Source: Bacilli bacterium
Lineage (GTDB): Bacteria > Bacillota_I > Bacilli_A > ML615J-28 > CAG-698
Direction of reading: 5' to 3'
Length of the DNA: 64,000 nucleotides
Assembly: GCA_918272565.1 (NCBI GenBank)
Contig: CAKJYW010000002.1
Coordinates: 44,266 to 108,265 of the forward strand
Part shown: positions 47,537 through 63,745 of the stretch, one piece after another
How positions within the stretch are numbered: position 1 is the first letter of the stretch
How the letters are laid out: every line of letters starts with the position of its first letter
Position numbers and translations under genes: made by a program
Notes under the pieces: generated by a model
Database searches by the model: none
What the model was told of the DNA's origin: nothing
The model's input: only the letters and a program-made list of their open reading frames with translations

Positions 47537-47577
47537 AAAAATATGCTTCCCAAAAGGGAAGCATTATTTTTTATCCT
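47537..47577. terminator. Bidirectional Rho-independent terminator
   Basis: aaaaaaaTATGCTTCCCAAAAGGGAAGCATAtttttt sits between convergent genes. Confidence 0.55.
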
Positions 47578-49847: not shown

Positions 49848-49959
49848 ATCTTTCCTCCTTGGTTTTAAGATAAATGTATAGGTTATATATTATGTAAACC
49901 TTTGCATACATATTATAACATATAAATAAATCAAAAAAAATCAATTTTTTTATAAGAAA

Positions 49960-49998
49960 GAAAAAAAGACTCTCACTTCAAAAGTGAGAGCCAGTTTT
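49960..49998 (-). terminator. Rho-independent terminator of paralog 2
   Basis: On the minus strand: CTCTCACTTTTGAAGTGAGAG followed by TCTTTTTTTC. Confidence 0.5.
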
Positions 49999-50006
49999 CT
50001 ATTTAA

Positions 50007-52289
50007 TTATCCCATTGCAGAATACTTAGTATTGAATGTATTAATATAAGTATCTTCTAGAGAATCCATTGTTTGTGAGTAGTCTGCACCTGTAACGATT
50101 GTAGTAATCTTAGCGCAAAGTGGAGATGTGGCAATTGAAGTATAGAAGTCATGAACTGCATCATAGAATACGTTAGAGTTAGTCCACCACATTGCAGCTT
50201 CAACTGATTCAGGATCATCAACCTTAGAGCTGATTGCATTACGTTTCAATGTTTCAGGGTCATATGATGGATCATCACTGTAGTATCTATTAGTTCTTAG
50301 ATACATATCAAGCATTGCCATATAGATATCATCGTAAGTAACGCCAGCAGGATGAACTTTGTCACGACCTTCAGCAAACATTAATACAGTAGTACCATAT
50401 TGAGCGATTTGTTGTTGTTCTTTAGTCATATCATCTGGACGAGGGAATGGAACATAACCAAAACGAGTATCTTCACCCCACATATCACTAGTCCATCTGT
50501 TATCACCTTTCATGAACCACCAAGCACCAGAAACCATAACGCAAGTCTTATCAAAGAATGCACCAGTAGTTTCCATCCATGTATCAAATGCTGTTCCGCT
50601 TCCTAGAGCGCCTTTAGCATATAATCTACTTAATAGCTCAGCAGCTGCAACTTCACGAGGATGTTTCAAAGTTACTTTAATAGCAGCAGGGTCAGCAATC
50701 TTAATACCAGCAGCATTAGTTAATCCAACCCAGTGATAATAGTAACGTCCACCAATTGCATATTCGCCTGCACCTAATAATGCTTGAACATTAGTTGCCC
50801 ATTTTTCAAATTCACTATAAGTCCAGTTGCCTTCATTGAAGATCTTAGCAGGTGATTCAACTTTTAGTTTTTCAACCCATGCAAGGTTGTAATATAAACC
50901 TAAGTCAACATAGTTTTGAGCTTCGTTTGTACCAGTTGATAATCCATATAAGCCACCACGGTTAGTAGCTGCTTGTTTTTGAACAACGTCCATTTGGTTC
51001 TTACCATATCTAGCATAAACTAATCTTGCATCATGTGCACTATTAACACTAGCGAAGTCAGCTAACCAGCTTGATGAAATAGTTAAGAAGTCAGCTTTTG
51101 CATCGCCTAGTTGAGCTTGTGCATTGATCCAGTCAATACGAGAAGTTCCCCAAGGAGCTTCATCTGGATATGCTTCTACACTGATTGTACAGTTATAAGT
51201 AGATTCGATTTCTCTCCAAGCTTGTTGTTTGAACATCTTGTCGCTTCCAGAATATGCATCTAGGAATGGGTCTAAGTCAGCAAGTGCACTATCAGCGTTC
51301 ATTAAAATAATCTTATAGTGTTGTAAGTCAGGATATGCTTCAGGAGCAGTTGAAGGAGTAACTTTAATCTTAACACGGCTACTCTTAATAGAAGGGTCTA
51401 CCTTAGAGTAAGCGATGATGTATGTAGTACCTTCAGAAACACCTAAAATCTTACCATTTTCGTCGATTGTAGCAACTTCAGGTTTAGTTGATTCCCAAGT
51501 AACGTTTTGACTAGCACCTTGAGGTTCAACTGTTGCTCTTGCAGTTAGTTTGTAACCAACTTCAACTTCATCAGCAGTAACACTTACTGTGATAGCAGTA
51601 GGAGCTTCAGTTACAGGACCAGTTTCATCATTCTTAATAACTGTTACTTCAAATGTTGCTTTAACATTTGTATCAGCAGTTGATGTAGCAGTAATAGTAA
51701 CTTTACCTTCAGCAACGCCAAGTACGCTACCCTTAGTTACAGTTGCAATACTAGGATCACTACTTTCCCAAGTAACGCCTTTTGTAGCTTCTTCTGGAGT
51801 GTAGCTAACAGTCAAAAGGATAACTTTGTTAACTTTAACTTCAGTTTCACCACTGATTTCAATAGCAGTAGGAAGGATTACTTCTGGTTCAGGAGGAGTA
51901 ACTTCACCACCAGCTTTAACAGTTACAGTGAATTCAGCTTTAACGTTCTTATCAGCTTCAGCAGTTACTGTAATTGTAGCTGTACCAGCACTGATACCAG
52001 TTACTTTACCATCTTTAACAGTTGCGATTGCACTGCTACTAGATGAATATCTAACTTTCTTATTTGTAGCATTGTCAGGTGTAACTTTTACTGTAACAGT
52101 AAATTCTTCACCAATTTCAATTTCTTCTTTTTGTCCACTAATTTCAATCTTAGTAGGCTTTACATCTTCTACTACTGGAGTGTCATCTGGTTTTGGAGGG
52201 TCATCTGGTTTTTCTGTTTCTCCACCACCACATCCAATTAGTACTAGTGCAAATACCAATACTAGAATGAAAGAAAACCATTTTTTCAT
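50007..52289 (-). CDS. Paralogous surface lipoprotein 2 (Big_2 x3 + SBP_bac_1-like)
   Basis: Same architecture as paralog 1; closest to paralog 1 across the C-terminal domain. Confidence 0.55.
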   Translation of the reverse strand: MKKWFSFILVLVFALVLIGCGGGETEKPDDPPKPDDTPVVEDVKPTKIEISGQKEEIEIGEEFTVTVKVTPDNATNKKVRYSSSSSAIATVKDGKVTGISAGTATITVTAEADKNVKAEFTVTVKAGGEVTPPEPEVILPTAIEISGETEVKVNKVILLTVSYTPEEATKGVTWESSDPSIATVTKGSVLGVAEGKVTITATSTADTNVKATFEVTVIKNDETGPVTEAPTAITVSVTADEVEVGYKLTARATVEPQGASQNVTWESTKPEVATIDENGKILGVSEGTTYIIAYSKVDPSIKSSRVKIKVTPSTAPEAYPDLQHYKIILMNADSALADLDPFLDAYSGSDKMFKQQAWREIESTYNCTISVEAYPDEAPWGTSRIDWINAQAQLGDAKADFLTISSSWLADFASVNSAHDARLVYARYGKNQMDVVQKQAATNRGGLYGLSTGTNEAQNYVDLGLYYNLAWVEKLKVESPAKIFNEGNWTYSEFEKWATNVQALLGAGEYAIGGRYYYHWVGLTNAAGIKIADPAAIKVTLKHPREVAAAELLSRLYAKGALGSGTAFDTWMETTGAFFDKTCVMVSGAWWFMKGDNRWTSDMWGEDTRFGYVPFPRPDDMTKEQQQIAQYGTTVLMFAEGRDKVHPAGVTYDDIYMAMLDMYLRTNRYYSDDPSYDPETLKRNAISSKVDDPESVEAAMWWTNSNVFYDAVHDFYTSIATSPLCAKITTIVTGADYSQTMDSLEDTYINTFNTKYSAMG

Positions 52290-52385
52290 AAAAAATCTCC
52301 TTTTTTAATTTTTGAATTGCGGCTATGCCGCTTATATCCATTTAATATTTTACCATAAATGTAAAGCGCTTGCAATTTTTTTTTA

Positions 52386-52418
52386 CTAAAAAAAGGAGAA
52401 ACTTTTAAAGTTTCTCCA
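52386..52418 (-). terminator. Rho-independent terminator of paralog 3
   Basis: Perfect palindrome GGAGAAACTTTAAAGTTTCTCC followed on the minus strand by a 7-T run. Confidence 0.5.
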
Positions 52419-52431
52419 ATAGTCTATTTAA

Positions 52432-54678
52432 TTATCCACCATATTTATTTACAAGTGTTGTAATGTATTCGTCGATTATAGCTTCCATACCTTGTTCGTA
52501 GTCAGCACTCTTGAATACAGCATTATAAATTGCAGTACTAAATGATGAACTATCACCTGAAATACCAGCATAAATTGGGTCGAACAAAGTCTTTTCAGCA
52601 GTATAGAACAAGAATGCTTCAACTGATTCAGGATCATCTAGTTTATTAGAAACATTTTGTCTCTTAATAGCTTCAGCATCATATGATGGGTCAGCTTGAT
52701 GTAAACGAATAGTTGTTAAATACATTTCTTGTGTTGCTCTAAATACATCTTCGTAAGTAACTGATCCATGAACCCATTCACGTTGAGCTGCCATAATATA
52801 TACAGCACCAGGAATCAAGTTAACATATGTATTTTCTTTACTGATGTTTGGATGATATGGGAATGGAACATATCCATATCTTGTATCTTCACCAAACATA
52901 TCTGAAGTGTAACGAGTTGAGTGTTTAACAAACCAATATTTACCAACATGCATTAATGCTTTACCATTTTCAAAAGCATCAGCTACATCGCTTGAGTTAT
53001 CACTTGTTGGGTCATATGCACCAGCTACATAAATTTGATTTAAGATGCTTGCGGCATCAATTGCAAATCTATGTTTATAATTCATTTCTAATGTAGTAAC
53101 ATTAGCGATTCTAACACCACTAGCATTAACCATACCTTCAAATAATTTACCAACTTGTCCACTTAAAACATATGTTCCACTAGGAAGTAATGCTTGAGCA
53201 GCAAGTGCCCAGTCTAGGAAGTCATCAAATGTCCATTTGCCTTCATTAAATAATCTAGCAGGGTTTTGAATCTTATATTTTTCTAACATTCCAAGGTTAT
53301 AATAAATACCTTCATCAGCATAAGTTGATGTTCCACTTATACCAGTTGATACGGCATACATATCACCTTTAACTGAGGCTGCTTGACGAGCTGCAGGTTC
53401 AATTTGGTTCTTACCATATTTAGCAAAGAATGAAGTTGTAGCTGTCATAGCTCCACTAGAATAGAATCTTGGAACCCAGTCAGTTTCAACAACAAAGAAG
53501 TCAGCTAAAGCTTTACCAAGTTCTGCTTGAGAGTTGATCCATGTGATTCTACTTTCACCCCATGGAGCATCATCAGGATAGCCTATTACTTCAAAGCTAC
53601 AATTGAATTTTTTTCCTATTTCAGTCCAAGCTTGTTGCTTAAACATCTTATCACTTGAGCCATATCCTTCTAAGAATGGGTCAACTTCAGCAAGAGCACT
53701 ATCAGCAATCATAAATTGAATTACATAGCCTTGCATATCATTGATTGGAAAGGCAGCAGATGGGTCAGCATTAACTTTTAATTTGAATCTGCTACTCTTG
53801 ATTGTTTCATCTTTTGCGTAATAAGCAATGATGTATGTTGTACCTTCAGCGACACCTGTTACAACACCTTTATCATCGATTGTTGCAATTTCTGGTTTAG
53901 TTGATTCCCAACGAACACCATTATCAGCACCATCAGGTAAAATGTTAGCTACAAGTCTAACTGAATATCCTACTTCAACTTCACTTTCACCAGTGATAGT
54001 GATTGATTCAGGCTTTACCACTTCAACAACGCTAGCTTCTTTTACTGTGATTTCAACTGAAGCAGTTAAAGTTGCTACTTTATTTGATGTAGCTGTAATT
54101 GTTACAGTTCCTTGTTTAATACCCTTAACAACACCATTAGTGATTGTAGCGATACTTGGATCACTACTAGTCCATGTTACATCATTTGAAGCTCCATCAG
54201 GTTTAGCAGTAACTGTTAAAGCAATTGATTTACCTTCTTCAACTTCGCTCTTACCATTAATTGTAATTTCCTCTGGTAATATTTCAACTGGAGGTTCATC
54301 TCCGTTTGGTTTAACAGTAACTGTGAATTCTTTCTTAACAGCTTTATCAGCATCAGCTGTAACTGTGATTGTAGCTGTACCAGCACTAATACCAGTTACT
54401 TTTCCATCTTTTATTGTAGCAATAGCGCTACTACTAGTTGAATATCTAACTTTCTTATTTGTAGCATCATCTGGTAAAACTTTTACAGTAATTGTAAATT
54501 CTTCACCAATTTCAATTTCTTCTTTTTGTCCAGTAATTTCAATACTAGTTGGTTTAACTTCAGTAACAACTGGTTCTGGATCTTTTCCTTGTTCCTTTTC
54601 AGGTTCTTTTTCTCCACCACAACCAATTAGTACTACTGCTAGTACCATAACTAGAATGAACGAAAACCATTTCTTCAT
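52432..54678 (-). CDS. Paralogous surface lipoprotein 3 (Big_2 x3 + SBP_bac_1-like)
   Basis: Start set at MKKWFSFILVMVLAVVLIGCGG (Met 5 of the track ORF). Its C-terminal domain is closer to paralog 4 than to paralogs 1 and 2. Confidence 0.55.
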   Translation of the reverse strand: MKKWFSFILVMVLAVVLIGCGGEKEPEKEQGKDPEPVVTEVKPTSIEITGQKEEIEIGEEFTITVKVLPDDATNKKVRYSTSSSAIATIKDGKVTGISAGTATITVTADADKAVKKEFTVTVKPNGDEPPVEILPEEITINGKSEVEEGKSIALTVTAKPDGASNDVTWTSSDPSIATITNGVVKGIKQGTVTITATSNKVATLTASVEITVKEASVVEVVKPESITITGESEVEVGYSVRLVANILPDGADNGVRWESTKPEIATIDDKGVVTGVAEGTTYIIAYYAKDETIKSSRFKLKVNADPSAAFPINDMQGYVIQFMIADSALAEVDPFLEGYGSSDKMFKQQAWTEIGKKFNCSFEVIGYPDDAPWGESRITWINSQAELGKALADFFVVETDWVPRFYSSGAMTATTSFFAKYGKNQIEPAARQAASVKGDMYAVSTGISGTSTYADEGIYYNLGMLEKYKIQNPARLFNEGKWTFDDFLDWALAAQALLPSGTYVLSGQVGKLFEGMVNASGVRIANVTTLEMNYKHRFAIDAASILNQIYVAGAYDPTSDNSSDVADAFENGKALMHVGKYWFVKHSTRYTSDMFGEDTRYGYVPFPYHPNISKENTYVNLIPGAVYIMAAQREWVHGSVTYEDVFRATQEMYLTTIRLHQADPSYDAEAIKRQNVSNKLDDPESVEAFLFYTAEKTLFDPIYAGISGDSSSFSTAIYNAVFKSADYEQGMEAIIDEYITTLVNKYGG

Positions 54679-54751
54679 GTTTACCTCCAAGAATAATTCT
54701 TTGTAAGCCTTTTCTTACATATATATTTTATCATACATAGCAATATCAAAC

Positions 54752-54780
54752 AACAAAAAAAGCATGATTAATCATGCTTT
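54752..54780 (-). terminator. Rho-independent terminator of the MscS gene (hairpin spans its stop codon)
   Basis: On the minus strand: AAGCATGATTAATCATGCTT followed by a 7-T run. Confidence 0.45.
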
Positions 54781-55703
54781 TCTTCTTCACTTTTTTTATC
54801 TCTATAACTAACAGTTATTTGGTTGAATGGAATAGTAATATTATTCTCATTGAATATTAAATATAATTCTCTATTTAAATCACGTTGAACCTGATAAATA
54901 TCACTTTCTTTACACTTAGCAATGAATAACAAGTTGACACTTGATGATCCTAGTTCACTTACACCTTTGTAAATAGGCGCATCGACCATTCCATTAACAT
55001 TCTTCTTTAATCTTTCAATATTTTGTTTAAATACTTCTTCTACTCTCTTTAAATCCTCACCATAATCGATACTCATAGTACATTTAGCATAAGATAATTC
55101 TGATGTTTGGTTGATAATGTTTTTAATATCACTGTTATTAATTATCTTAACATTACCACCAGCATCCATAACTTTAGTCACTCTAATACCGATGTCACTA
55201 ACTGTGCCTCTAAATCCATCAATTGTTATGATATCACCAACTTCATATTCTCCCTCAAATACGATGAAGAAACCAGCGATGATGTCAGCTATCAAACTTT
55301 GAGCACCAAGACCTATAACTAGGGCTAAAATACCAGCACTAGCTAGTAGAGTTGAAGTATCAACTCCAAAGGCACCAAGTACAAGTAGTATTGTAATAAT
55401 GATTACTACCCATTTAATAATACTTTTAATTAGACCTAAAATAGTCTTAGCTTTGTTTGACTTTGAAAATGTCTTTTCAGCAACAAAATGAACAATATAA
55501 ATAATCCATGCACTAACAGTAACAATTTGGAATGATTTGATTGCTGCAGGGATCTTTGTCCATAAGAAATTAATTACTGTATTTTGAAATTGATAAGTGA
55601 AAAATATGGAATTTCCACCTGTTATAAAACCTTGAAAAGCCGCAATAGCCACAGTTATTGCAAGCATTACTACTAATGCTATAAAACCTCTACTTATTTT
55701 CAT
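54768..55703 (-). CDS. Mechanosensitive ion channel family protein (MscS-like)
   Basis: Three TM helices, then the MscS beta-domain ...GAQSLIADIIAGFFIVFEGEYEVGDIITIDGFRGTVSDIGIRVTKV...; 311 aa. Confidence 0.75.
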   Translation of the reverse strand: MKISRGFIALVVMLAITVAIAAFQGFITGGNSIFFTYQFQNTVINFLWTKIPAAIKSFQIVTVSAWIIYIVHFVAEKTFSKSNKAKTILGLIKSIIKWVVIIITILLVLGAFGVDTSTLLASAGILALVIGLGAQSLIADIIAGFFIVFEGEYEVGDIITIDGFRGTVSDIGIRVTKVMDAGGNVKIINNSDIKNIINQTSELSYAKCTMSIDYGEDLKRVEEVFKQNIERLKKNVNGMVDAPIYKGVSELGSSSVNLLFIAKCKESDIYQVQRDLNRELYLIFNENNITIPFNQITVSYRDKKSEEEKHD

Positions 55704-55714
55704 AAAATGTCCTC

Positions 55715-56545
55715 CTATATTGAAACATATGTGTCAAGTAGCGAATATACTTCGCCATTATAAATACAAGTAATAACAAGGTGGATATGCTCTTTATTAG
55801 TGAAATCAGCTTCACTAATATCTATTCTTTGTTCGGTAGTGTATCCATCCAAAAAAAAGTACTCTATCTCATTCCCTTTATCATCACTTAAATACGCTTT
55901 AAATTCATAATATGTATATTCCGTATCAATAAAATCAAGCTTTATATGGAAGCATCCATCGATATTACACTTACATTCGTAACTTACTTTAATATCACCA
56001 ATATCAGTAACTATAACATCATGTTGCTTCTTAGTCTTAACTTCAATTTCTTTGATTACATCATTACCATATCTTTCTTCTCCACAAACAGCTAATTTGT
56101 AGCTTGTCTCAGCTTCTAGTTCCATAAACTCACCAGAATTAAAACCACTATAACCAATCACTTCGTATTCATAGTTATCATTATACAATTTGATTGTTAA
56201 ATCTTCAGTGCTTTCTCCGATATCGATGTGATAAAAGATTTCATTTTCTCCAACTTCGACCATCTCAAACTCTACATTAGGTCGCTCATTTAAGATATCC
56301 ATATTTAGAATAAATAGTGTAGCCACAACCGCAACAGTTCCGGTTGCAGCAGTGTAAGTCATAGCTTTAATAATAGTATTAATGGTATCCATTATTTTAT
56401 TACTCTTTTTGCTAGTACCACTACTATTTGTTGCCCCCACATTAAATTCATCTGGAATTTGATATTCTTTTGCTTCACTAAATTCATTTGGTTGGGTGTT
56501 CGTTGGCTTTGGAGTGGATACTATTTCATTGAATTCGTCTTTCAT
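55715..56545 (-). CDS. Hypothetical bitopic membrane protein (cytoplasmic N-tail, one TM, extracellular beta-rich domain)
   Basis: TM segment AATGTVAVVATLFILNM; no recognisable motifs. Overlaps the upstream gene by 4 nt, suggesting translational coupling. Confidence 0.3.
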   Translation of the reverse strand: MKDEFNEIVSTPKPTNTQPNEFSEAKEYQIPDEFNVGATNSSGTSKKSNKIMDTINTIIKAMTYTAATGTVAVVATLFILNMDILNERPNVEFEMVEVGENEIFYHIDIGESTEDLTIKLYNDNYEYEVIGYSGFNSGEFMELEAETSYKLAVCGEERYGNDVIKEIEVKTKKQHDVIVTDIGDIKVSYECKCNIDGCFHIKLDFIDTEYTYYEFKAYLSDDKGNEIEYFFLDGYTTEQRIDISEADFTNKEHIHLVITCIYNGEVYSLLDTYVSI

Positions 56546-58116
56546 ACGATTAGTCCCCTCCTTTTTAGTATAATTACACCTACTACGCTCACTATAGCAA
56601 TCGAAGAAAAAGTGAGGATCATTGCTAGATATGGAGTCTTTTCATATTTCACTAAATAGATATTGCTAATATCTTTTGTTTTAATGACAATTTTTTTATC
56701 ACTATAAACGTAGTCTACTTTTTTTCTAACGCCATCAGTAAAGGTAAATAGATCAAAATCACCTATACCATCTAAATCATCATAAATAGTAATGACAACA
56801 TCACTATCAAAATGCTCTATAACATTATAAGTATCATCTATAATAGTAATAGTATACATTTTATTAGCCCAATCGACGTCAGCTACATTCTTGTATACAT
56901 TAAGTGAATAGTTACCAGTTGCGCTAGTTACGCCTTTAGCACTAGCCCTATATTGATAATCTTCATTGTAATATTCTTTGCTAGTTTCTATAACTACCTT
57001 TTCTATATCATTAATATTACTTAATAATTCACTTCTTAAATTATCTACTTCGTTTCTTAAAGTTAAGTCGGGAAGTAAATCAAAACTATCATCAATCAGC
57101 TTTTTAACTCTAATCAAGTTTTCACTAGTATAGATTTCTTTTAATTTTGCTTCACTATAGAAATCATTAAAATAATTAACAAATCTTTCTTTTGCTTGTA
57201 AAAGATAGACATAATCTTTTCCCTCATTATAGAAATTATCAAGTTCTTCACTCTTTTCTATAACATAGAAATCTCTATCACTATAACATCTATCATATAG
57301 AAAGCCACTTACACTACTAACATACAATGATACTTTACTAACAACTTCTTCTTCATCATGAACATTTAGTAATGCAAGGATTTTATTACTAACTATAATC
57401 TTTTCTTCTTCATATTTAGCTTTCTCTAAATAGTCATCTATAAATAAATCGCTATATCCTTCTTCTTCGCTTCTTTCTATAATATACCTTGAATAAAGGA
57501 TATTAAAAGAACTATAATCACTAGCTATGGTTTCTAAAGAAGATATATCATTTTCATCTATATCATCGAAATCTTTTTGTAATATAGGGTATTTTGCCTC
57601 TATTGCCTCTTTTAAAGCTTCCCTAATATCTTCTTCTACAACACTTCTTAACACCGAGAACTCAATATATTCGTTATCGTTTATAGATTGTAAAATATCT
57701 TCTTCATACTTTTCTATAATAATAGAATAATCTAAACCTAAGTCTTCTTTTAGAATCTCAAGGTGGTTTCTACCAAGGTCACTAAATTCTTCATATATTT
57801 CATTAATCAGTTCATCTATCTTATTATAGAGTTCTTCTATTTCTATATCTATATCTAAGTAATATGACAAAGAATCAATATAACTATCTAAACTTTCATC
57901 ATAGTCATAATCATATCCTTTTAGTGGACTAATTCTTTCACTAAATTGATCGATTAGTTCTTGTCTATATTCTAAATCATCTTCGGCTTCACCTGTCCCT
58001 GTTGGGTCATCCCCCGGTGCTGCAAGGATAGATACACCAAAAGAAAAGACAAAAAGAATTAAGATAAATGATAATATTAACTTTTTGGCATTAATTTTAT
58101 TCATAATCTTCACCAA
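56542..58116 (-). CDS. Hypothetical highly acidic secreted protein with N-terminal signal peptide and C-terminal TM anchor (KRRGLIV tail, no LPXTG)
   Basis: Signal KKLILSFILILFVFSFGVSILAAPGDD. Overall D/E/Y-rich with predicted helices. C-terminal YLAMILTFSSIAIVSVVGVIILKRRGLIV. 524 aa. Confidence 0.3.
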   Translation of the reverse strand: MVKIMNKINAKKLILSFILILFVFSFGVSILAAPGDDPTGTGEAEDDLEYRQELIDQFSERISPLKGYDYDYDESLDSYIDSLSYYLDIDIEIEELYNKIDELINEIYEEFSDLGRNHLEILKEDLGLDYSIIIEKYEEDILQSINDNEYIEFSVLRSVVEEDIREALKEAIEAKYPILQKDFDDIDENDISSLETIASDYSSFNILYSRYIIERSEEEGYSDLFIDDYLEKAKYEEEKIIVSNKILALLNVHDEEEVVSKVSLYVSSVSGFLYDRCYSDRDFYVIEKSEELDNFYNEGKDYVYLLQAKERFVNYFNDFYSEAKLKEIYTSENLIRVKKLIDDSFDLLPDLTLRNEVDNLRSELLSNINDIEKVVIETSKEYYNEDYQYRASAKGVTSATGNYSLNVYKNVADVDWANKMYTITIIDDTYNVIEHFDSDVVITIYDDLDGIGDFDLFTFTDGVRKKVDYVYSDKKIVIKTKDISNIYLVKYEKTPYLAMILTFSSIAIVSVVGVIILKRRGLIV

Positions 58117-58157
58117 TTTTTATATTAATATTTTAATATAAATAGCCCATTTTTACA

Positions 58158-58198
58158 ATAAAAAAATCCCAAGTAGGATTAAATTCCTACTTGGGATA
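58158..58198 (-). terminator. Rho-independent terminator of paralog 4
   Basis: On the minus strand: ATCCCAAGTAGGAATTTAATCCTACTTGGGAT followed by a 7-T run. Confidence 0.5.
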
Positions 58199-58205
58199 TT
58201 ATTCG

Positions 58206-60458
58206 TTATGCATATAATTCTAAGAACTTCAAGTAAATATCATTATAAGCAGCATCAATTGCTTCAATAAAGTCAGTGTTGTTTTTAACAACAGATGAGA
58301 TTGTTGTTGCTGGAGCGCCACTATAGTTAAGGGCGATACCATTGAAGATTGGGTCAAACAAAGTCTTTTCAGCTGTATAGAACATACAAGCAGTTACAGA
58401 CTCAGGATCATCAAACTTAGCTGATAATACTTGGCTCTTAATACCTTCTGCATCAAATGAAGCATCTTGTTGTTGATACTTAATTGTATTTAAGAACATT
58501 TCTTGCATTACTCTAAATACATCTTCATAAGTCATTCCAGCTTTATGATTATATGTTCTTTGAGCAGCCATCATGTAGCATGACTCACCAACAGCATTTA
58601 CATAGCTTCTTTCTTTACCAACTGATGCAGCATATGGGAATGGAACATATCCGTATCTTGTATCTTCACCCCACATGTCTGTTGGGAATCTATTAGATGC
58701 TTTTACAAACCATAATTCACCATCTTGACATAAAGCTGTTCCACCTTGGAAGGAAGCAACACCTTGGTCATATCCATAAACTGGGTCAAATGCACCAGCT
58801 AGTTGAGTACTTTTAAGTACATCAATTGCTTCAACTGAGTATTTATGAGTGAAGTTAAGTTCCATTGTTGTTGTGTTTGCAATTCTAACACCACTAGCTG
58901 AAACCATACCTTGCCAATAGTCTTGAGGAGCACCACTTAATACATAATATCCTTGAGGAAGCAATGCTTGAGCTGAAAGTACCCAGTCAAGGAAATCATC
59001 ATAGCTCCAACGACCTTCATTGAACATCTTTGCAGGTGATTCAATCTTATATTTTTCAAGCATACCTACATTATAGAAGATTCCATAATATGGATAGATT
59101 GTAGTTTGATTGATACCTGTAGAAACGATATATAAATCGTTTTTGTATGAAGCTGATTGACGAACAGCTGGTTCAATTTGGTTCTTACCAAACTTAGCAA
59201 AATATGTTGTAGTTGCTTGCATTGCATTTGCTGCATAGAATTGAGGGAACCAAGTTGATGTAACAATGTAGAAGTCAGCTAAAGCTTTACCATTTTCAGC
59301 TTGTGAGTTAATCCAAGAAACTCTACTTGGACCCCAAGGAGCATCATCAGGATAAGCTACAACAGAGATATTACAGTTGTATTTAGACTTAACTTCTTCC
59401 CATGCTCTTTGTTTATACATTTTATCAGTAGCAGTATAGTCTTCAAGGAATGGATCAATGCTACTTAAAGCACTATCTGCTTGCATAATTACGATTTCAT
59501 ATCCACCTAAGTCATTAACAGGAATTAATGAAGATTGGTCAATATTAACTTTTACTTTGTAACGACTACTCTTGACAGTTTCATCAGCTACAGAATAAGC
59601 GATAATATAAGTAGTACCTTCGCTTACTCCAGTTACAATACCTTTTTCATCGATTGTAGCAATTTCTGGTTTAGTTGATTCCCATCTAATTGTATTATCA
59701 GCTCCATCAGGTAAAACTGTTGCTGAAAGTCTAATAGAATAACCAACTTCAACTTCTTCTTCACCATTTAATGTTATTGATTCAGGTTTAATAACAACAA
59801 CTTCTTGAGTTGGAATAACTTTGATAACGATTGTTGCTTTAATATTAGCATCGATTGTTGAAGTAGCAGTAATTGTTACTTCACCTTCTTTAATACCTTT
59901 AACAATTCCGTTATTAACAGTTGCGATTGCCTCATCACTACTAGTCCAAGTTAAGCCTTTTGTAGCATTTGTTGGAGTATATGTAACTTGCAAGTTAAGC
60001 ATCTTACTAACTTGAACCTCAGCTCCACCACCAATTTCAAGTTCAGTTGGAGGAATAATTTCAGGTTCAGGTGGAGTATCCTCTTGACCTGCTTTTACAG
60101 TAACAGTAAATTCTTTCTTAACAGCTTTATCAGCATCTGCTGTAACAGTGATTGTAGCAGTACCAGCACTAACACCAGTTACTTTTCCATCTTTAACACT
60201 AGCAACACTACTGTTACTAGATGAATAACGTACCTTTTTGTTTGAAGCATTGTCTGGTAAAACTTTTACAGTAATAGTAAAATCTTCACCAATTTCAATT
60301 TCTTCTTTTTGTCCACTAATTTCAATACTAGTAGGCTTAACATCTTCTACTGCTGGAGTTGGTCCAGGTGTTGGTTCTGGTTCTTCTTCCTTACCACCAC
60401 ATCCAATTAGTACTAGAGCTAATACCATAACTAGAATAAAAGAAAACCACTTTTTCAT
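58206..60458 (-). CDS. Paralogous surface lipoprotein 4 (Big_2 x3 + SBP_bac_1-like), distal gene of an amino-sugar utilisation operon
   Basis: MKKWFSFILVMVLALVLIGCGG; same architecture as paralogs 1-3; lies immediately downstream of GNAT-nagB-GH3-permease on the same strand. Confidence 0.55.
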   Translation of the reverse strand: MKKWFSFILVMVLALVLIGCGGKEEEPEPTPGPTPAVEDVKPTSIEISGQKEEIEIGEDFTITVKVLPDNASNKKVRYSSSNSSVASVKDGKVTGVSAGTATITVTADADKAVKKEFTVTVKAGQEDTPPEPEIIPPTELEIGGGAEVQVSKMLNLQVTYTPTNATKGLTWTSSDEAIATVNNGIVKGIKEGEVTITATSTIDANIKATIVIKVIPTQEVVVIKPESITLNGEEEVEVGYSIRLSATVLPDGADNTIRWESTKPEIATIDEKGIVTGVSEGTTYIIAYSVADETVKSSRYKVKVNIDQSSLIPVNDLGGYEIVIMQADSALSSIDPFLEDYTATDKMYKQRAWEEVKSKYNCNISVVAYPDDAPWGPSRVSWINSQAENGKALADFYIVTSTWFPQFYAANAMQATTTYFAKFGKNQIEPAVRQSASYKNDLYIVSTGINQTTIYPYYGIFYNVGMLEKYKIESPAKMFNEGRWSYDDFLDWVLSAQALLPQGYYVLSGAPQDYWQGMVSASGVRIANTTTMELNFTHKYSVEAIDVLKSTQLAGAFDPVYGYDQGVASFQGGTALCQDGELWFVKASNRFPTDMWGEDTRYGYVPFPYAASVGKERSYVNAVGESCYMMAAQRTYNHKAGMTYEDVFRVMQEMFLNTIKYQQQDASFDAEGIKSQVLSAKFDDPESVTACMFYTAEKTLFDPIFNGIALNYSGAPATTISSVVKNNTDFIEAIDAAYNDIYLKFLELYA

Positions 60459-60518: not shown

Positions 60519-61472
60519 CTATTCAGTTAGTTTAATCTTATATTTGTTATAACATTTCCAAACTTCATAATTAAATGTTTGGTAATATTCCATTAAACCA
60601 GTCCAATCGATGAACAAATTATCATGTCCTTCTAAATGTAGGCTATAGAAAGCATTATTAAAGATTTCTCTAGAAACACCTTGTCCCCTATAATCCCTAT
60701 CTACTCCCAGTGGACCAATTCCAATTAAATCATCAAACCTATCACTCCAAGTGATATTATATGAATAATTATCCTTACTTGGTGTATTAATTTTTAAAAA
60801 TCCAATTACTTTATCTTTATCTAAGGCAAGAAAATAACACCTTAAGTCTTTATTAATACTTAAGTACTCTTCAAGTTCAAAGTTCCATCTACCAGGGAAG
60901 TTCTTAACCATAAAAGCGCGAAGTGATGGAATGTCACTATCCTTCATATAGCGGTAGACATAATTAGTTTTATTCTTCACTTCATTACTAAATGGCTTAA
61001 TCATAAGTAAATCATGAGTAATTCCCAAAAAACTAAAGCCACGTTTTTCTAAAAAATTAGTTGTTAAGTTATCAAAATCACTAGGAACTCCAGGGAAGAA
61101 ATTACCTAAATCTTGTCCCATCCAAACTTCTTCTTTTCCTAATTTTTTAAATTCTTCTAACGCTTTGTCTAAAAGCATAGAACCTATACCATTTTTTCTA
61201 CTCTTCCTTTTAACAAAGAATAAGCTAATCCAACCTCTAGTTTTATATGCACTTATTAACTCACCATCATATATTTTAGAAATAATGAATCCTACTAATT
61301 CATTATCTAAAAATGCGCCAAAAGACGCATTTTTATAAAGATATGGCGAGTTAGTAACATGATGATTAAATAAACCTTCGTTTATTGGATACATGAAACC
61401 TAGTTCACTGTTCCAAAGTTCTCTACATTTATCATAATCACTAAAACTGTTAAAACTCTTTATTTCAATCAT
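60519..61472 (-). CDS. GNAT-family N-acetyltransferase (tandem acetyltransferase folds)
   Basis: RKSRKNGIGSMLLDKALEEFKKLG and DYRGQGVSREIFNNAF acetyl-CoA-binding-like motifs; 317 aa. Confidence 0.55.
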   Translation of the reverse strand: MIEIKSFNSFSDYDKCRELWNSELGFMYPINEGLFNHHVTNSPYLYKNASFGAFLDNELVGFIISKIYDGELISAYKTRGWISLFFVKRKSRKNGIGSMLLDKALEEFKKLGKEEVWMGQDLGNFFPGVPSDFDNLTTNFLEKRGFSFLGITHDLLMIKPFSNEVKNKTNYVYRYMKDSDIPSLRAFMVKNFPGRWNFELEEYLSINKDLRCYFLALDKDKVIGFLKINTPSKDNYSYNITWSDRFDDLIGIGPLGVDRDYRGQGVSREIFNNAFYSLHLEGHDNLFIDWTGLMEYYQTFNYEVWKCYNKYKIKLTE

Positions 61473-62194
61473 TTAGCAAGTCCTAATGCTGCTTCATCAA
61501 CAATGATGATAGCATCTTTGTGTCTATTTAGAATTGAAGCTGGACAGTTTTCTGTAACTTCACCGCTTAATAACATCTTAATAGCATCAACCTTATTAGC
61601 GCCACTTGCAATTAGAAGAACCTTCTTTGCTTGCATAATGTTCTTAATACCCATAGTCATTGCATATGTTGGTACTTCATCAATAGAGTTAAAGAATCTC
61701 TTGTTGTCTTGTCTAGTCTTTTCAGTTAGTTTAACAACAAATGTTTCTTGATCAAATGAAGTTCCAGGTTCATTAAATCCAATGTGTCCATTAGCACCAA
61801 TTCCTAATAATTGTAGATCAATTGTAGCTTTATGTAATAAGTCATTATATTCATCACATAATTTTTGAAGGTCACTTCCTTCAGAGTTAGGGATGTGAAC
61901 ATTTTCCTCTTTAATATCAACATGATAGAAAAGATTTCTATGCATAAATGAATAGTAACTTTCTGGATGTGATTTTGGAAGTTGGCAATATTCATCTAAG
62001 TTATAAGTCTTAACATCTTTGAATGATATTTCACCTTTTTCATACATCTTAATTAGGTTTTGATATAAACCAATTGGACTACTTCCAGTAGCTAATCCTA
62101 AAGTACAATCAGGTTTTGCTTTAATTAAGTCAGCAATAATACCTGCTGCAACCTTACTTAATTCTTCATAATTCTTAACTTTAATTACTTGCAT
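61469..62194 (-). CDS. nagB: Glucosamine-6-phosphate deaminase
   Basis: TLGLATGSSPIGLYQNLIKMYEKGEISFKDVKTYNLDEY; 241 aa. Confidence 0.85.
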   Translation of the reverse strand: MQVIKVKNYEELSKVAAGIIADLIKAKPDCTLGLATGSSPIGLYQNLIKMYEKGEISFKDVKTYNLDEYCQLPKSHPESYYSFMHRNLFYHVDIKEENVHIPNSEGSDLQKLCDEYNDLLHKATIDLQLLGIGANGHIGFNEPGTSFDQETFVVKLTEKTRQDNKRFFNSIDEVPTYAMTMGIKNIMQAKKVLLIASGANKVDAIKMLLSGEVTENCPASILNRHKDAIIIVDEAALGLAK

Positions 62195-62209
62195 AATAAT
62201 TCTTCCTTT

Positions 62210-63745
62210 CTATACTAACCTAACAGGTAATTTCCCTTTGAATTCTATTTCTCCCTTTAAAGCACGAGATAATGCTTTAAGGCTATCTTCACCAACCTCA
62301 TATAAACAAATATAGTTTTGTAAACCTTTAAGGTATAGTGAATCATATGGAGAACGCATGCTACAAACAACTGTCTTACTCTTATCTAAACAATCAAACA
62401 CTTTAGTTTGATAATCATCTTTAGTAACATTCATTGTAGCCATTATTATTTTATCATATTTTTTACTAATTGTTTCAATATATTCTAAATTTTCTAATTC
62501 TCTATCGTATTTAATCTCATCAATATCAGTTAGATAAGTTTTCAAAGTTTTATATTCACTAGTTTCATTATCAACTAATGTTAGTAATTTTACTTGAGGG
62601 AATAAAATCAAAGTCTTTTCGTCTTTATTAATTCTAACATCCATGTTATTAAAAGCTAAAGTGACGCTTTCTTCAAATAACTCTTTAGATAAAGCATGAG
62701 CTTTTTCTAAATCGATTTTTGGAGCATCTTTAAGCAAGAATTCGTTCTTAATCTTAATGATTCTACTAACAGCTTTATCAACTGTTTCTATACTAATTTT
62801 ACCTTCTTTAATTAGGCGAAGGAATGTATCATAGATTTCATGTTGCTCTTTTAGCTCAGCTCCACCACAGAACATCAAAACATCGATTCCCGCATTCACA
62901 CTATTAAGTAAGATTTCTTCATATGAGAAATTCTCAGTAATTGCACCCATTGTAAGAGAGTCTGTACAGATAAATCCATCGTACCCCATCTCATCTCTTA
63001 ACAAGTTTTGAATAACTTTCTTAGATAGAGTTGCTGGGTATTTATCATCAACCTTACTATATAATATATGAGCTGCCATAATTCCATCACATTCATTATG
63101 ACTAATAGCTTCCCTAAATGGTAATAATTCTAAAGATCTTAAAGTATCTAAATCTTTAGCAACAGTCGGAAGTGATAGGTGACTATCAACACTAGTATCG
63201 CCATGACCAGGGAAATGCTTTAGTGTTGAAATAATGTTAGCTTTTCTATAGCCTCTTACTGCTTCTCGTACGTATTCTGCTACAACCATAGGATTATCAG
63301 AATAGCTTCTAGAATTAATTACTGGATTAAGTGGATTATTATTAACATCACTAACAGGCGCAAAATTCATGTTAAATCCTAATTCTTTTAACTCACAACC
63401 TTCATAAAAACAAATCTCTTCAATTGATCTAGTTGTAGCACTTAGGGTCATTGCTCCTGGAAGTGGGGTAATGTTTTTCATTACACGCCTAACCATTCCA
63501 CCTTCTTGGTCAACTCCAATAAAGATTGGATATTTAGCGGCTGCTTGAATCTTTTTGTTTAATTCTTTTGTTACTTCTAAATTATCACTATCGATGTTTT
63601 TAGCAAACAAAATGACACCACCAACATTTAAATCTTTAATTTGTTCTTCAAGTTGATCACTATAATTAACACCATGAAAAGCAAACATTAACATTTGCCC
63701 AACTTTTTCTTCTAGTGTTAAATCTTTGATATTCATCTTTTTCAT
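62210..63745 (-). CDS. nagZ: Glycoside hydrolase family 3 beta-N-acetylhexosaminidase (NagZ-like)
   Basis: KHFPGHGDTSVDSH catalytic His-Asp motif and the GH3 N-terminal domain; 511 aa. Confidence 0.75.
   Translation of the reverse strand: MKKMNIKDLTLEEKVGQMLMFAFHGVNYSDQLEEQIKDLNVGGVILFAKNIDSDNLEVTKELNKKIQAAAKYPIFIGVDQEGGMVRRVMKNITPLPGAMTLSATTRSIEEICFYEGCELKELGFNMNFAPVSDVNNNPLNPVINSRSYSDNPMVVAEYVREAVRGYRKANIISTLKHFPGHGDTSVDSHLSLPTVAKDLDTLRSLELLPFREAISHNECDGIMAAHILYSKVDDKYPATLSKKVIQNLLRDEMGYDGFICTDSLTMGAITENFSYEEILLNSVNAGIDVLMFCGGAELKEQHEIYDTFLRLIKEGKISIETVDKAVSRIIKIKNEFLLKDAPKIDLEKAHALSKELFEESVTLAFNNMDVRINKDEKTLILFPQVKLLTLVDNETSEYKTLKTYLTDIDEIKYDRELENLEYIETISKKYDKIIMATMNVTKDDYQTKVFDCLDKSKTVVCSMRSPYDSLYLKGLQNYICLYEVGEDSLKALSRALKGEIEFKGKLPVRLV

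What the first reader, a model, noticed from the sequence alone, without database searches (positions are those of the whole stretch)
54768..58116. Three-gene cassette (MscS channel + two unannotatable membrane/secreted proteins) inserted inside the lipoprotein paralog array
Between paralogs 3 and 4 lies a co-oriented, translationally coupled trio (the genes overlap at 56542-56545). It comprises a 524-aa extremely acidic signal-peptide protein with a C-terminal TM anchor, a 276-aa bitopic protein with an extracellular beta-rich domain, and an MscS-family channel. Neither unknown protein has motifs I can recognise. This is a candidate envelope-stress, adhesion or secretion module of unknown function.
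Basis: partly seen in the sequence, partly recalled or inferred. Interest (0 to 1): 0.5.

Follow-up and report, generated by a model that had tools for sequence, protein, structure and literature searches.

The report
Conserved MscS channel with surface partners
The three genes are real, and they are one copy of a previously undescribed module found in many distantly related bacteria: a special type of pressure-release (MscS) channel always encoded next to a single-pass membrane protein with fibronectin-like outer domains, and usually next to a large membrane-anchored surface protein, which suggests this bacterial stretch-gated channel has dedicated outside partners.

Summary
Three co-oriented minus-strand genes form their own transcription unit, with a terminator, promoter-like site, three genes and a second terminator. 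A is 56542-58104 and encodes 520 aa. Its start is the ATG behind a GGTGA ribosome-binding site, not the TTG at 58116. It has a signal peptide, an acidic helical region, a small beta domain and a C-terminal TM anchor. B is 55715-56545 and encodes 276 aa. It has a cytoplasmic tail with repeated acidic-aromatic dipeptides, one TM and two confidently modelled beta-sandwich domains, the first FN3. C is 54768-55703, a canonical MscS core with an extra N-terminal TM. The genome is Acholeplasmatales.

The B family has 196 representative clusters at E<=1e-3, is absent from Pfam and carries no source names. In all ten lineages whose context I could read, B is immediately followed by an MscS gene. Those genomes range from 24 to 57% GC, and B is 22-64% identical to the window. 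In nine lineages B is preceded by a large surface protein of 504-5683 aa where complete. In six of them that protein is demonstrably homologous to A. Flanking genes differ between lineages. The linked MscS proteins are 37-80% identical to each other and 26-34% identical to the closest solved MscS.

I conclude that this is a conserved functional unit in which B, and usually A, are dedicated partners of a specialised MscS. The mechanism, accessory subunit or tether, is inferred. It is not a mobile insertion.

The parts
58166..58197 (-). Intrinsic terminator of the upstream lipoprotein gene. It separates the trio from the array.
   Evidence: 13-bp stem with 6 GC pairs, followed by TTTTTTT. The sequence was read directly.
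58130..58158 (-). Promoter-like site of the trio (TTGTAA, 17 nt, TAAAAT).
   Evidence: Consensus scan, 9 of 12 matches. It lies between the terminator and the start of A. This is a consensus match only and function was not tested.
56542..58104 (-). Gene A, 520 aa. It encodes a signal peptide (residues 1 to about 28, with ILA|APGDD), an acidic and probably helical ectodomain, a small beta-rich domain (residues about 395-486), a C-terminal TM anchor (residues 490-513) and a KRRGLIV tail.
   Evidence: - ORF.
- Start codon and ribosome-binding site.
- pI 4.25.
- Secondary-structure pattern only, from a low-confidence model.
- No Pfam, NCBIfam, PADLOC or PHROGs hit.
56980..57651 (-). Region of A (residues 152-375) that is homologous to the membrane-proximal helical region of giant surface proteins encoded upstream of B in distant lineages.
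   Evidence: - A profile of the Acholeplasmatales A proteins hits residues 2137-2359 of the 2650-aa L014 protein. The score is 47.1 bits with conditional E 9e-17, against 7.3 bits or less for shuffled decoys.
- A local jackhmmer run links window residues 152-375 with the L009, L014, L015, L017, L002, L008, L010 and L012 proteins. No decoys were recruited.
55715..56545 (-). Gene B, 276 aa, a type II single-pass protein. It has a cytoplasmic tail (residues 1-61) with four E-[F/Y] dipeptides and a K-rich stretch, a TM (62-85), an FN3 domain (about 90-172) and a second beta sandwich (about 180-276) carrying the ECxCxxDGxFHF motif.
   Evidence: - AlphaFold2 model built on a 49-sequence alignment, with pLDDT above 90 for residues 90-276.
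- A family profile matches PDB fibronectin at E=1.8e-6.
- Tail motif statistics.
- Family of 196 representative clusters.
54768..55703 (-). Gene C, 311 aa, an MscS-family channel. It has an extra N-terminal TM0 (residues about 5-27), a conserved external TM0-TM1 loop (about 28-52), and then the canonical TM1-TM3, beta domain and C-terminal domain.
   Evidence: - Pfam MS_channel_1st, 2nd and 3rd all score above their cut-offs.
- Matches Thermoanaerobacter MscS (3UDC) at E=1.8e-41 over query residues 44-305.
- Alignment of module-linked MscS proteins.
- Identity matrix.
54755..54784 (-). Terminator-like hairpin that overlaps the MscS stop codon and marks the end of the transcription unit.
   Evidence: 13-pair stem with only 3 GC pairs, followed by a T-run. 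It is weaker than the upstream terminator.

Best explanation
The trio is one copy of an old, self-contained three-gene membrane module built around a specialised subfamily of MscS channels.

**Shown.**
- The three genes form one transcription unit.
- All three products are membrane proteins.
- Gene B is immediately followed by this MscS subfamily in every lineage examined.
- Gene A, or a much larger homologue of it, usually precedes B.

**Inferred.**
- B is a dedicated accessory partner of the channel. Its TM helix, rich in small residues, and its membrane-proximal FN3 domain would sit beside the extra TM0 helix and the conserved outer loop of the MscS.
- B's acidic-aromatic cytoplasmic tail is free to contact the channel's cytoplasmic cage.
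- B's strongly conserved distal domain holds the membrane-anchored surface protein A.
- A projects a long acidic helical stalk from the cell surface. In other lineages the stalk carries thousands of residues of adhesin-like repeats.
- The assembly would therefore couple what happens at or beyond the cell surface (load, attachment, envelope deformation) to the opening threshold of an osmolyte-release valve. This would add to the membrane-tension gating that MscS channels already have.
- In this probably wall-less Acholeplasmatales genome, A is reduced to the conserved core of helical region, beta domain and anchor.
For: **1. Operon structure.** Terminator, promoter-like site, ATGA overlap, 11-nt gap with a ribosome-binding site, and a downstream terminator.

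**2. Size of the B family.** 196 representative clusters at E<=1e-3 and 61 at E<=1e-10, mostly 260-300 aa with the same architecture.

**3. B-MscS adjacency.** It holds in 10 of 10 lineages read.
- The lineages are: the window with L001; L002-L005; L010 with L013; L009; L014; L015 with L016; L017 with L018; L019; L021; L022.
- All are on the same strand, with gaps of 11-107 nt.
- Locus GC ranges from 24 to 57%.
- B identity to the window is 22-64%.

**4. Flanking genes differ.** They include a lipoprotein array, MIP, GlnA, an ABC exporter, and PII with DUF1538. Only the module is conserved.

**5. A distinct MscS subfamily.** The linked MscS proteins are 37-80% identical to each other but 26-34% identical to the closest solved MscS. 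All share an extra TM0 and a conserved outer loop.

**6. A is homologous to the C-terminal part of giant proteins.** These are 2460, 2650 and 5683 aa long and are encoded upstream of B elsewhere. They share the order of beta domain followed by TM anchor.

**7. Conservation in B is concentrated in the distal domain.** 12 of the 14 invariant or near-invariant columns lie there. The one locus without an A gene (L021) has a B variant made of FN3 repeats that lacks that domain.

**8. Cytoplasmic tail motif in B.** E-[FYW] dipeptides occur 2.39 times per tail, against 0.52 in shuffles.
Against: - There is no experimental or structural evidence of contact between the three proteins.
- No B-MscS or A-B fusion protein was found among 18 longer family members.
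- A's own model is unusable, with pLDDT 35.
- The ten contexts were chosen by me from one search and are not a census. I could not test whether this MscS subfamily also occurs without B.
- The link between B's distal domain and A rests on a single locus.
- Homology of the beta domain between the Acholeplasmatales and giant versions is only suggestive (hhalign probability 49%).
- Bacterial MscS channels are understood to gate by membrane tension alone (abstract of PMC7299334, seen). A tether role would therefore be unprecedented.
Confidence: 0.55

Rival explanations
1. The surface proteins are the point of the module and the channel serves them. A and B would form an adhesin with its membrane anchor. 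The MscS-type channel would support them, for example by relieving local membrane stress or ion imbalance while a huge acidic protein is exported and anchored. It would not be regulated by them.
For: - The N-terminal parts of the A homologues look like variable adhesins, with beta-helix-like repeats, Flg_new repeats and a faint MBG_3 Pfam hit on a neighbouring 1065-aa L014 gene.
- A varies about ten-fold in size while the channel is constant.
Against: - The L021 locus keeps B and MscS but has no A gene, so the pair does not depend on a giant cargo.
- The channel is the most conserved of the three proteins (53-57% identity, against 22-29% for B at the same distances). This fits a core component better than a helper.
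- A has an ordinary Sec signal peptide.
Confidence: 0.2
2. The three genes are co-transcribed but functionally unrelated. This would be an ordinary osmotic safety valve that happens to lie next to two surface or antigen genes.
For: - The MscS core is canonical.
- No fusion proteins were found.
- There is no direct evidence of interaction.
Against: - Immediate same-strand adjacency holds in 10 of 10 lineages with otherwise unrelated neighbours.
- It persists down to 22% identity in B and across 24-57% GC.
- Chance, or inertia of gene order, is therefore very unlikely.
Confidence: 0.1
3. The trio is a cassette acquired recently by horizontal transfer or a mobile element and dropped into the lipoprotein array.
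For: - It interrupts a tandem paralog array.
- The two flanking paralogs are each other's closest relatives, at 61% identity.
- It has its own promoter and terminators.
Against: - The same position and order occur in relatives whose B is 58-64% identical (L002, L008).
- No direct or inverted repeats flank it and no integrase or transposase is nearby.
- GC of 0.28-0.32 equals the genome background, whereas the lipoprotein genes are the outliers at 0.35-0.38.
- There are no phage-family or defence-family hits.
Confidence: 0.05
4. The module is a surface-triggered membrane-permeabilising defence system. An exposed receptor-like protein would sense phage attack and open a channel to abort the infection.
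For: - The architecture combines variable giant surface proteins with a channel.
- The family is unannotated and patchily distributed.
Against: - No PADLOC or PHROGs match for any of the three proteins.
- Neighbours are housekeeping genes, not defence islands.
- The MscS is strongly conserved rather than fast-evolving.
Confidence: 0.04

Closest known systems
Canonical small MscS channels (E. coli MscS/YggB; Thermoanaerobacter tengcongensis MscS, PDB 3UDC and 3T9N)
   Same: Gene C has the TM2/3 pore helices, the beta domain and the C-terminal alpha/beta domain, each above its Pfam cut-off. It aligns with TtMscS over residues 44-305 at E=1.8e-41, and the pore helix is nearly identical.
   Different: - It has an additional N-terminal TM0 and a conserved outer loop of about 25 residues. 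Both are shared by all module-linked homologues and absent from the region aligned to TtMscS.
- It scores far below the NCBIfam equivalog cut-offs (165 against 500 bits).
- It is always encoded directly after a B-family gene. No such partner is described for canonical MscS in the literature I could search.
Large MscS-family members with fused periplasmic domains (E. coli MscK/KefA, MscM/YjeP, YbiO)
   Same: By analogy only, they combine an MscS pore module with a signal peptide, a large and mainly helical extracytoplasmic domain, and extra TM helices (my knowledge of these proteins). The C-terminal MscS modules of MscK and MscM match gene C.
   Different: - Here the extracytoplasmic parts are on separate polypeptides (A and B).
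- B's ectodomains are beta sandwiches, not helices.
- A shows no Pfam match to any family, including the MscK-type N-terminal domains, at E<=0.1.
- This is a resemblance in layout, not homology.
Giant C-terminally anchored Gram-positive surface proteins such as Staphylococcus aureus Ebh
   Same: They have a signal peptide, a very long helical acidic extracellular rod and a C-terminal TM anchor with a basic tail. Ebh has been linked to envelope integrity and osmotic tolerance (my recollection of the literature, not checked here). The A homologues of 2460-5683 aa have this layout.
   Different: - There is no detectable sequence similarity: no Pfam FIVAR, GA or DUF1542 hits.
- I do not know of an MscS gene linked to ebh.
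- The window's A is only 520 aa.
Tether or auxiliary-subunit models of eukaryotic mechanosensitive channels (for example extracellular tethers proposed for ENaC/degenerin channels, PMC6955349, and Piezo1 tethered through the cadherin complex, bioRxiv 10.1101/2020.05.12.092148)
   Same: The concept is shared: a channel whose mechanical input is delivered or tuned by separate proteins with extended extracellular or cytoskeletal parts (abstracts seen).
   Different: The channel families and organisms are unrelated. Nothing here shows force transmission. For prokaryotic channels the accepted model is force-from-lipids (PMC7299334 abstract).

Membership tests
MscS family (Pfam MS_channel; small-conductance mechanosensitive channels) | The three MscS domain models (TM2/3, beta domain, C-terminal domain) score above their curated cut-offs. 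| tested here: met
   PF21088 scores 35.3 against a cut-off of 23.1, PF00924 scores 53.5 against 20.2, and PF21082 scores 23.4 against 21.
MscS family (Pfam MS_channel; small-conductance mechanosensitive channels) | Full-length collinear similarity to a solved MscS, including the Gly/Ala-rich pore helix TM3. | tested here: met
   3UDC matches at E=1.8e-41, with query residues 44-305 aligned to chain residues 18-281. The TM3 stretch LLASAGILALVIGLGAQSLIADIIAGFFIVFE aligns with [32 protein letters not shown].
MscS family (Pfam MS_channel; small-conductance mechanosensitive channels) | A heptameric channel that opens under membrane tension. | not testable with these tools
   This needs electrophysiology or a solved structure.
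Named MscS equivalogs (NCBIfam: Thermoanaerobacter-type, Helicobacter-type, E. coli MscS, MscK, MscM) | Score above the equivalog cut-off. | tested here: not met
   The best score is 165.5 bits against a cut-off of 500 (NF047601). All other models also score below their cut-offs.
MscK/MscM-type large MscS proteins | A large N-terminal periplasmic domain and additional TM helices fused to the MscS core in one polypeptide. | tested here: not met
   Gene C encodes 311 aa with one extra TM only. A and B have no Pfam hits at E<=0.1.
Fibronectin type III domain (first ectodomain of B) | FN3 beta-sandwich fold, with sequence-profile similarity to FN3. | tested here: met
   - Foldseek matches tandem FN3 pairs at E of about 2e-6.
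- The family profile matches fibronectin 1FNF at E=1.8e-6.
- Pfam fn3 is hit only weakly, in 3 of 49 members, and not by the window protein.
LPXTG sortase-anchored surface proteins (for A) | An LPXTG-like motif directly before the C-terminal hydrophobic segment and basic tail. | tested here: not met
   The sequence before the TM is ...YLVKYEKTPYLAMILTF..., with no LPXTG. The giant homologues have two or three C-terminal TM segments.
Bacterial lipoproteins (for A, given the surrounding lipoprotein array) | A lipobox with an invariant Cys at the end of the signal peptide. | tested here: not met
   The signal peptide ends ...FGVSILAAPGDD and has no Cys. The neighbouring paralogs do have LIGCGG.
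[not shown]
   - B's tail has no Pfam domain.
- No sigma-factor gene was seen in any of the loci where neighbouring genes were annotated.
Mobile or inserted cassette | Flanking repeats, a recombinase gene, atypical composition, and presence or absence polymorphism among relatives. | tested here: not met
   - No flanking repeats.
- No recombinase ORF.
- GC equals the genome background.
- The trio is present at the same site in L001, L002 and L008.
Known anti-phage defence systems or phage protein families | A match to PADLOC or PHROGs models. | tested here: not met
   No hits at E<=0.01 for any of the three proteins.

The most novel reading that the evidence does not exclude
This would be a bacterial tether-coupled mechanosensitive channel complex. 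A surface-exposed protein, giant in other lineages, is anchored next to an MscS channel through an FN3-domain adaptor. Pulling or deformation at the cell surface, from attachment, wall strain or contact with a host or particle, would be transmitted to the channel. That would give bacteria a force-from-tether input on top of force-from-lipids gating.
Probability: 0.2. Interest if true: 0.9.

Novelty: new variant of a known kind. Interest (0 to 1): 0.66.

Why it matters
Bacterial MscS channels are the textbook case of channels that sense only membrane tension, and no dedicated partner proteins are described for them in the literature I could search.

This module is a strictly conserved gene neighbourhood that couples one MscS subfamily to an FN3-domain single-pass protein and to surface proteins of up to thousands of residues. 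If it reflects a complex, it would do three things:
1. Provide the first candidate accessory or tether subunits of a prokaryotic mechanosensitive channel.
2. Give a function to two unannotated protein families, including a class of giant surface proteins in uncultured gut and rumen bacteria.
3. Offer a small form in which to test the idea. In this Acholeplasmatales genome the three genes total about 3.3 kb.

The linkage also gives a practical annotation rule for these families.

Tried and rejected
- **Word-indexed homology search for A.** Both the single sequence and the alignment returned only the 97%-identical P0001. The second of these used the last search and added nothing.
- **Structure prediction of A.** With only the window protein and P0001 the model had pLDDT 35 and was not used for fold search.
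- **Metagenome scan with the 49-sequence alignment.** It failed because no block was conserved enough. A narrower alignment returned only two loci, both from a clade already sampled.
- **Genome-collection scan.** It returned one locus, which did identify the organism as Acholeplasmatales.
- **AlphaFold-database fold search.** The library was unavailable, so I could not find UniProt members or their taxonomy.
- **Cluster look-up.** It gave no names or accessions for ten family members.
- **Fusion proteins.** I looked for proteins joining B to MscS or to A among 18 longer hits and found none.
- **Domain searches on A homologues.** Pfam scans of the giant A homologues and of their beta domains alone gave nothing above noise.
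- **Beta-domain homology.** hhalign between the Acholeplasmatales and giant versions was only suggestive, at 49% probability. The firm homology lies in the helical region instead.
- **Other family libraries.** PADLOC and PHROGs gave no hits. Rfam and tRNA scans of the window gave nothing.
- **Literature.** Five searches found no description of such a module.
- **Interpretations rejected.** B as an anti-sigma factor (generic fold hit, no sigma gene seen). A as a sortase substrate or a lipoprotein (motifs absent). A mobile insertion (no hallmarks, and the site is conserved).


Full report
**1. What is in the sequence**

Region 54768-58116 holds three consecutive minus-strand ORFs of 524, 276 and 311 codons.
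- The first two overlap by four bases (ATGA at 56542-56545).
- The third starts 11 nt after the second, behind an AGGAGG site.
- Upstream of the first gene, reading on the minus strand, lie a strong intrinsic terminator (58197-58166: 13-bp stem, T7), a promoter-like site (58158-58130), and the sequence AAAAATTGGTGAAGATTATG.
- The ATG at 58104 is therefore the likely start, giving 520 aa. This matches the 97%-identical database protein P0001.
- A weaker terminator-like hairpin overlaps the MscS stop codon (54784-54755).

The trio is thus its own transcription unit. It sits between two members of an array of four lipoprotein genes of 750-760 aa, each with three Big_2 domains and a solute-binding domain.

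**2. The three proteins**

I call the proteins A, B and C, in gene order.

*A (520 aa).*
- It has a non-lipoprotein signal peptide (…SILA|APGDD).
- The ectodomain has 24% Asp+Glu, and the pI of the whole protein is 4.25.
- A hydrophobic segment at 490-513 is followed by KRRGLIV.
- No Pfam, NCBIfam, PADLOC or PHROGs model matches it.
- Its AlphaFold model is unreliable (pLDDT 35). I take from it only the secondary-structure pattern, which the sequence also suggests: about 340 helical residues followed by a beta-rich stretch of about 90 residues.

*B (276 aa).*
- It has a 61-residue N-terminal tail ending in a Lys-rich stretch, then one TM rich in small residues (TAATGTVAVVATLFIL).
- The 190-residue ectodomain is modelled with pLDDT above 90 on a 49-sequence alignment. 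It forms two beta sandwiches.
- A family profile hits fibronectin FN3 modules by sequence at E=1.8e-6.
- The positive-inside rule places the tail in the cytoplasm, so B is a type II protein.

*C (311 aa).*
- It passes all three Pfam MscS models.
- It aligns with Thermoanaerobacter MscS (3UDC) over residues 44-305 at E=1.8e-41, with a near-identical pore helix.
- About 40 extra N-terminal residues form an additional hydrophobic helix, TM0, preceded by basic residues.

**3. Organism**

A genome-collection scan with the B alignment found one locus, in 'MAG: Acholeplasmatales bacterium Tener_01'. It has the same upstream genes: GH3, a NagB-like gene, GNAT, a lipoprotein, then A and B.
- A near-identical contig belongs to MAG GCA_963426235.1.
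- The window has 28-39% GC in 2-kb windows, 0.316 overall.
- That the organism lacks a cell wall is inferred from this taxonomic placement only.

**4. Conservation: the main result**

*Size of the B family.*
- B has four close relatives in the word-indexed search (45-99% identity).
- A profile search of 1.84 billion cluster representatives found 196 proteins at E<=1e-3 and 61 at E<=1e-10.
- Most are 260-300 aa and share one plan:
  - a tail with repeated acidic-aromatic dipeptides;
  - a polybasic stretch;
  - one TM;
  - an FN3-like domain (…YNDFTxRxxxLxxGxNxGxFxxLxPxxxYTxAV…);
  - a C-terminal domain with the motif ECxCxxDGYFHF…D…F.A.L.D…Q.I.
- The family is not in Pfam. None of the 49 members has a specific hit, and three hit fn3 weakly.
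- None of the ten clusters I looked up carries a name.

*Genomic context.* I read the context of members spread over the whole score range. In every lineage the B gene is followed at once, on the same strand, by an MscS gene.

| Locus | B query | Genes in order (aa) | Next gene(s) |
|---|---|---|---|
| Window, L001 | – | 520, 276, 311 | lipoprotein paralog |
| L002-L005 | P0003 | 538, 281, 303/305 | lipoprotein paralogs (L002) |
| L010, L013 | P0007 | ≥326 (504 in L012), 277, 311 | PII-like genes and a multi-pass membrane protein |
| L009 | P0011 | 2460, 277, 341 | MIP |
| L014 | P0013 | 2650, 277, 368 | 1065-aa protein (faint MBG_3) |
| L015, L016 | P0023 | 5683, 280, 350 | GlnA |
| L017, L018 | P0049 | ≥217, 297, 361 | ABC exporter |
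| L019 | P0060 | ≥179, 289, 341 | contig end |
| L021 | P0010 | no A, 701, 341 | Metallophos gene, opposite strand |
| L022 | P0090 | ≥282, 303, 384 | contig end |

- P0090, the query for L022, scored only E=1e-7 in the profile search.
- The gap between B and the MscS gene is 11-107 nt.
- A and B overlap, or lie within 55 nt of each other.
- These loci have 24-57% GC.
- Their B proteins are 22-64% identical to the window's B.
- Everything outside the module differs between lineages.
- An MscS gene is one of a few thousand genes in a genome. Ten out of ten immediate adjacencies across such distances cannot be chance or leftover synteny.
- This was a sample of my choosing and not a census.

**5. 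The linked channels are a distinct subfamily**
- The ten MscS proteins are 37-80% identical to one another. The window's is 53-57% identical to those from the 41-57% GC loci. All are only 26-34% identical to TtMscS, the closest solved structure.
- All have TM0 and a conserved loop of about 25 residues between TM0 and TM1: (G/E)S(V/I)F(N/F)…K-IPAxI(K/R)(S/T)xQI.
- With an N-in TM0 and the known MscS topology (my knowledge), that loop faces outward.
- The versions outside Acholeplasmatales add a conserved C-terminal helix, T…A..F…Q.ELS..IE.K.
- The channel is about twice as conserved as B.

**6. Gene A is conserved too**
- A profile of the four Acholeplasmatales-type A proteins hits residues 2137-2359 of the 2650-aa L014 protein. 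The score is 47.1 bits with conditional E 9e-17. The best of 120 shuffled decoys scores 7.3 bits.
- A local jackhmmer run started from the C-terminal 560 residues of the L014 protein. It recruits the upstream proteins of L009, L015, L017, L002, L008, L010, L012 and the window (residues 152-375), and no decoy.
- After this helical region, the giant proteins have a small beta domain (…YTVKILL…LQVV.V…G….Y.T.V.DGKYLVF.T..FS…V.G) and one to three TM segments with a basic tail.
- The window protein has a beta-rich stretch and a single anchor in the same order. Similarity of that beta part is only suggestive (hhalign probability 49%, pairwise E=1.7e-4).
- The N-terminal parts of the giants are variable repeats: GGA-rich beta-helix-like repeats in L009 and Flg_new repeats in L015.
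- The window's A therefore looks like the conserved membrane-proximal core of this protein class with no variable head.

**7. Further anatomy bearing on mechanism**
- In the B family, 12 of the 14 invariant or near-invariant columns lie in the distal second domain: C191, C193, D196, G197, F199, F201, D207, F215, A217, D221, Q239 and I241. The other two, L143 and Y149, lie in the FN3 domain.
- The only locus without an A gene (L021) has a B variant with seven FN3 repeats, no second domain and no cysteine. This is consistent with the second domain being the binding site for A, but it is a single case.
- In B's cytoplasmic tails, E-[F/Y/W] dipeptides occur 2.39 times per tail, against 0.52 in shuffled tails.
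- 62% of tail aromatic residues follow Asp or Glu, against an 18% Asp+Glu background.
- 37 of 49 members have at least two such dipeptides.
- This looks like a repeated short linear motif. Its target is unknown.

**8. Best explanation and its limits**

*Shown.*
- There is one transcription unit.
- It encodes three membrane proteins with the stated topologies.
- B is strictly linked to a distinct MscS subfamily.
- A homologous large, C-terminally anchored surface protein is frequently present.

*Inferred.*
- The three proteins act together, most simply as a complex.
- B would be an accessory subunit that contacts the channel through its TM and FN3, against the channel's TM0 and outer loop. Its tail may contact the cytoplasmic cage.
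- B would hold A through its conserved distal domain.
- The assembly would then tune or trigger an osmolyte-release valve according to events at the cell surface.

I put 0.55 on the functional-unit and accessory-partner reading. I put about 0.2 on the stronger claim of true tether-type force transmission.

*Against.*
- There is no interaction evidence.
- No fusion proteins were found.
- There is no census.
- The established view is that prokaryotic MS channels gate by force from lipids (PMC7299334 abstract).

**9. Rivals**
- *The channel serves an adhesin system (0.2).* The variable adhesin-like heads of the A homologues fit this. The B+MscS pair without A in L021, and the channel being the best-conserved member, argue against it.
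- *Unrelated co-transcribed genes (0.1).* This is contradicted by the linkage.
- *Recent mobile insertion (0.05).* The evidence against it is:
  - the site is the same in relatives with 58-64% identical B;
  - there are no flanking repeats or recombinase;
  - GC equals the background.

  The flanking paralogs are each other's closest relatives (61%). The array therefore probably grew around the trio, or the trio split a duplicated pair, before these species diverged.
- *Defence system (0.04).* There are no PADLOC or PHROGs hits and the neighbours are housekeeping genes.

**10. Comparison with what is known**
- C is a member of the MscS family: its domains and pore helix were tested and met. 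It is not an equivalog of any named subfamily.
- The module resembles MscK/MscM-type channels in layout, with a large extracytoplasmic part plus an MscS core. It is split over three polypeptides and has no detectable homology in the outer parts.
- The A homologues resemble Ebh-type giant anchored rods in layout only.
- Five literature searches found no description of a bacterial MscS with dedicated partner proteins, and none of this gene neighbourhood. The held library is incomplete, so absence is not proof.

**11. Verdict**
- The finding grows from a local curiosity into a conserved module with two unannotated families around a specialised MscS.
- Novelty: a new variant of a known kind.
- Interest: 0.66. 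The linkage is strong and surprising for the mechanosensitive-channel field, but the mechanism is inferred from genomics alone.

Noticed in passing
window 47571-54690 and 58206-60458: There are four tandem lipoprotein paralogs of 750-760 aa, each with a lipobox LIGCGG, three Big_2 domains and a solute-binding domain.
- They fall into two pairs. 47571 and 50007 are 72% identical. 52432 and 58206 are 61% identical, and this second pair flanks the trio.
- Their N-terminal Ig regions are more alike (60-76%) than their binding domains (38-68%).
- Their GC (0.35-0.38) is above the genome background.
- Each carries a long antisense ORF, for example 53828-54706 on the plus strand (292 aa). These are probably compositional artefacts.
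   Followed up: partly
window 60519-63745, and beyond the window end as seen in L001 1-7586: Upstream of the array lies an amino-sugar and oligosaccharide uptake locus. It holds a DUF5696 protein, two ABC permeases, a GH3 (NagZ-like) hydrolase, a NagB-like deaminase and a double-GNAT protein. The lipoproteins are probably its substrate-binding components.
   Followed up: partly
window 30685-32937 (minus strand): A 750-aa ORF combines an Amidase_2 (N-acetylmuramoyl-L-alanine amidase) domain, an aldo/keto reductase and a 4Fe-4S dicluster domain. This is an odd fusion in a genome placed in the supposedly wall-less Acholeplasmatales. Together with the GH3/NagB locus it may mean that the organism scavenges muropeptides from other bacteria.
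   Followed up: no
L015 5501-7945: In the 5683-aa homologue of A, the TM anchor is followed by a cytoplasmic extension of about 380 residues. Its end matches Pfam Ribosomal_L27A (a uL15-like domain). This is an unexpected domain on the inner side of a giant surface protein.
   Followed up: no
L021 5594-8747: This is a two-gene form of the module. B is 701 aa with seven FN3 repeats, no ECxC domain and no cysteine. It is followed by the MscS gene, and a divergent MgtC gene sits where A would be. Other FN3-only B variants exist (P0024 at 774 aa, P0047 at 376 aa), but I could not read their contexts.
   Followed up: partly
L009, L014, L015, L017, L019, L021 and L022 MscS genes (alignment): The module-linked MscS proteins outside the Acholeplasmatales clade carry a conserved extra C-terminal helix, T…A..F…Q.ELS..IE.K. 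The window, L002 and L010 proteins lack it.
   Followed up: no
window 55715-56545 (B residues 154, 191, 193, 198, 260): The window clade has five ectodomain cysteines. C191 and C193 (the ECxC motif) are more than 90% conserved across the family. A Cys at the position of C260 (…TC…) is the majority residue in the family consensus. C154 and C198 are specific to this clade, where most other members have V and Y. I could not tell whether these cysteines form disulfides or bind a metal.
   Followed up: no
window 1-64000: The whole 64-kb window has no tRNA gene and no Rfam family above its gathering score. GC skew is negative throughout, and nearly all genes are on the minus strand.
   Followed up: yes
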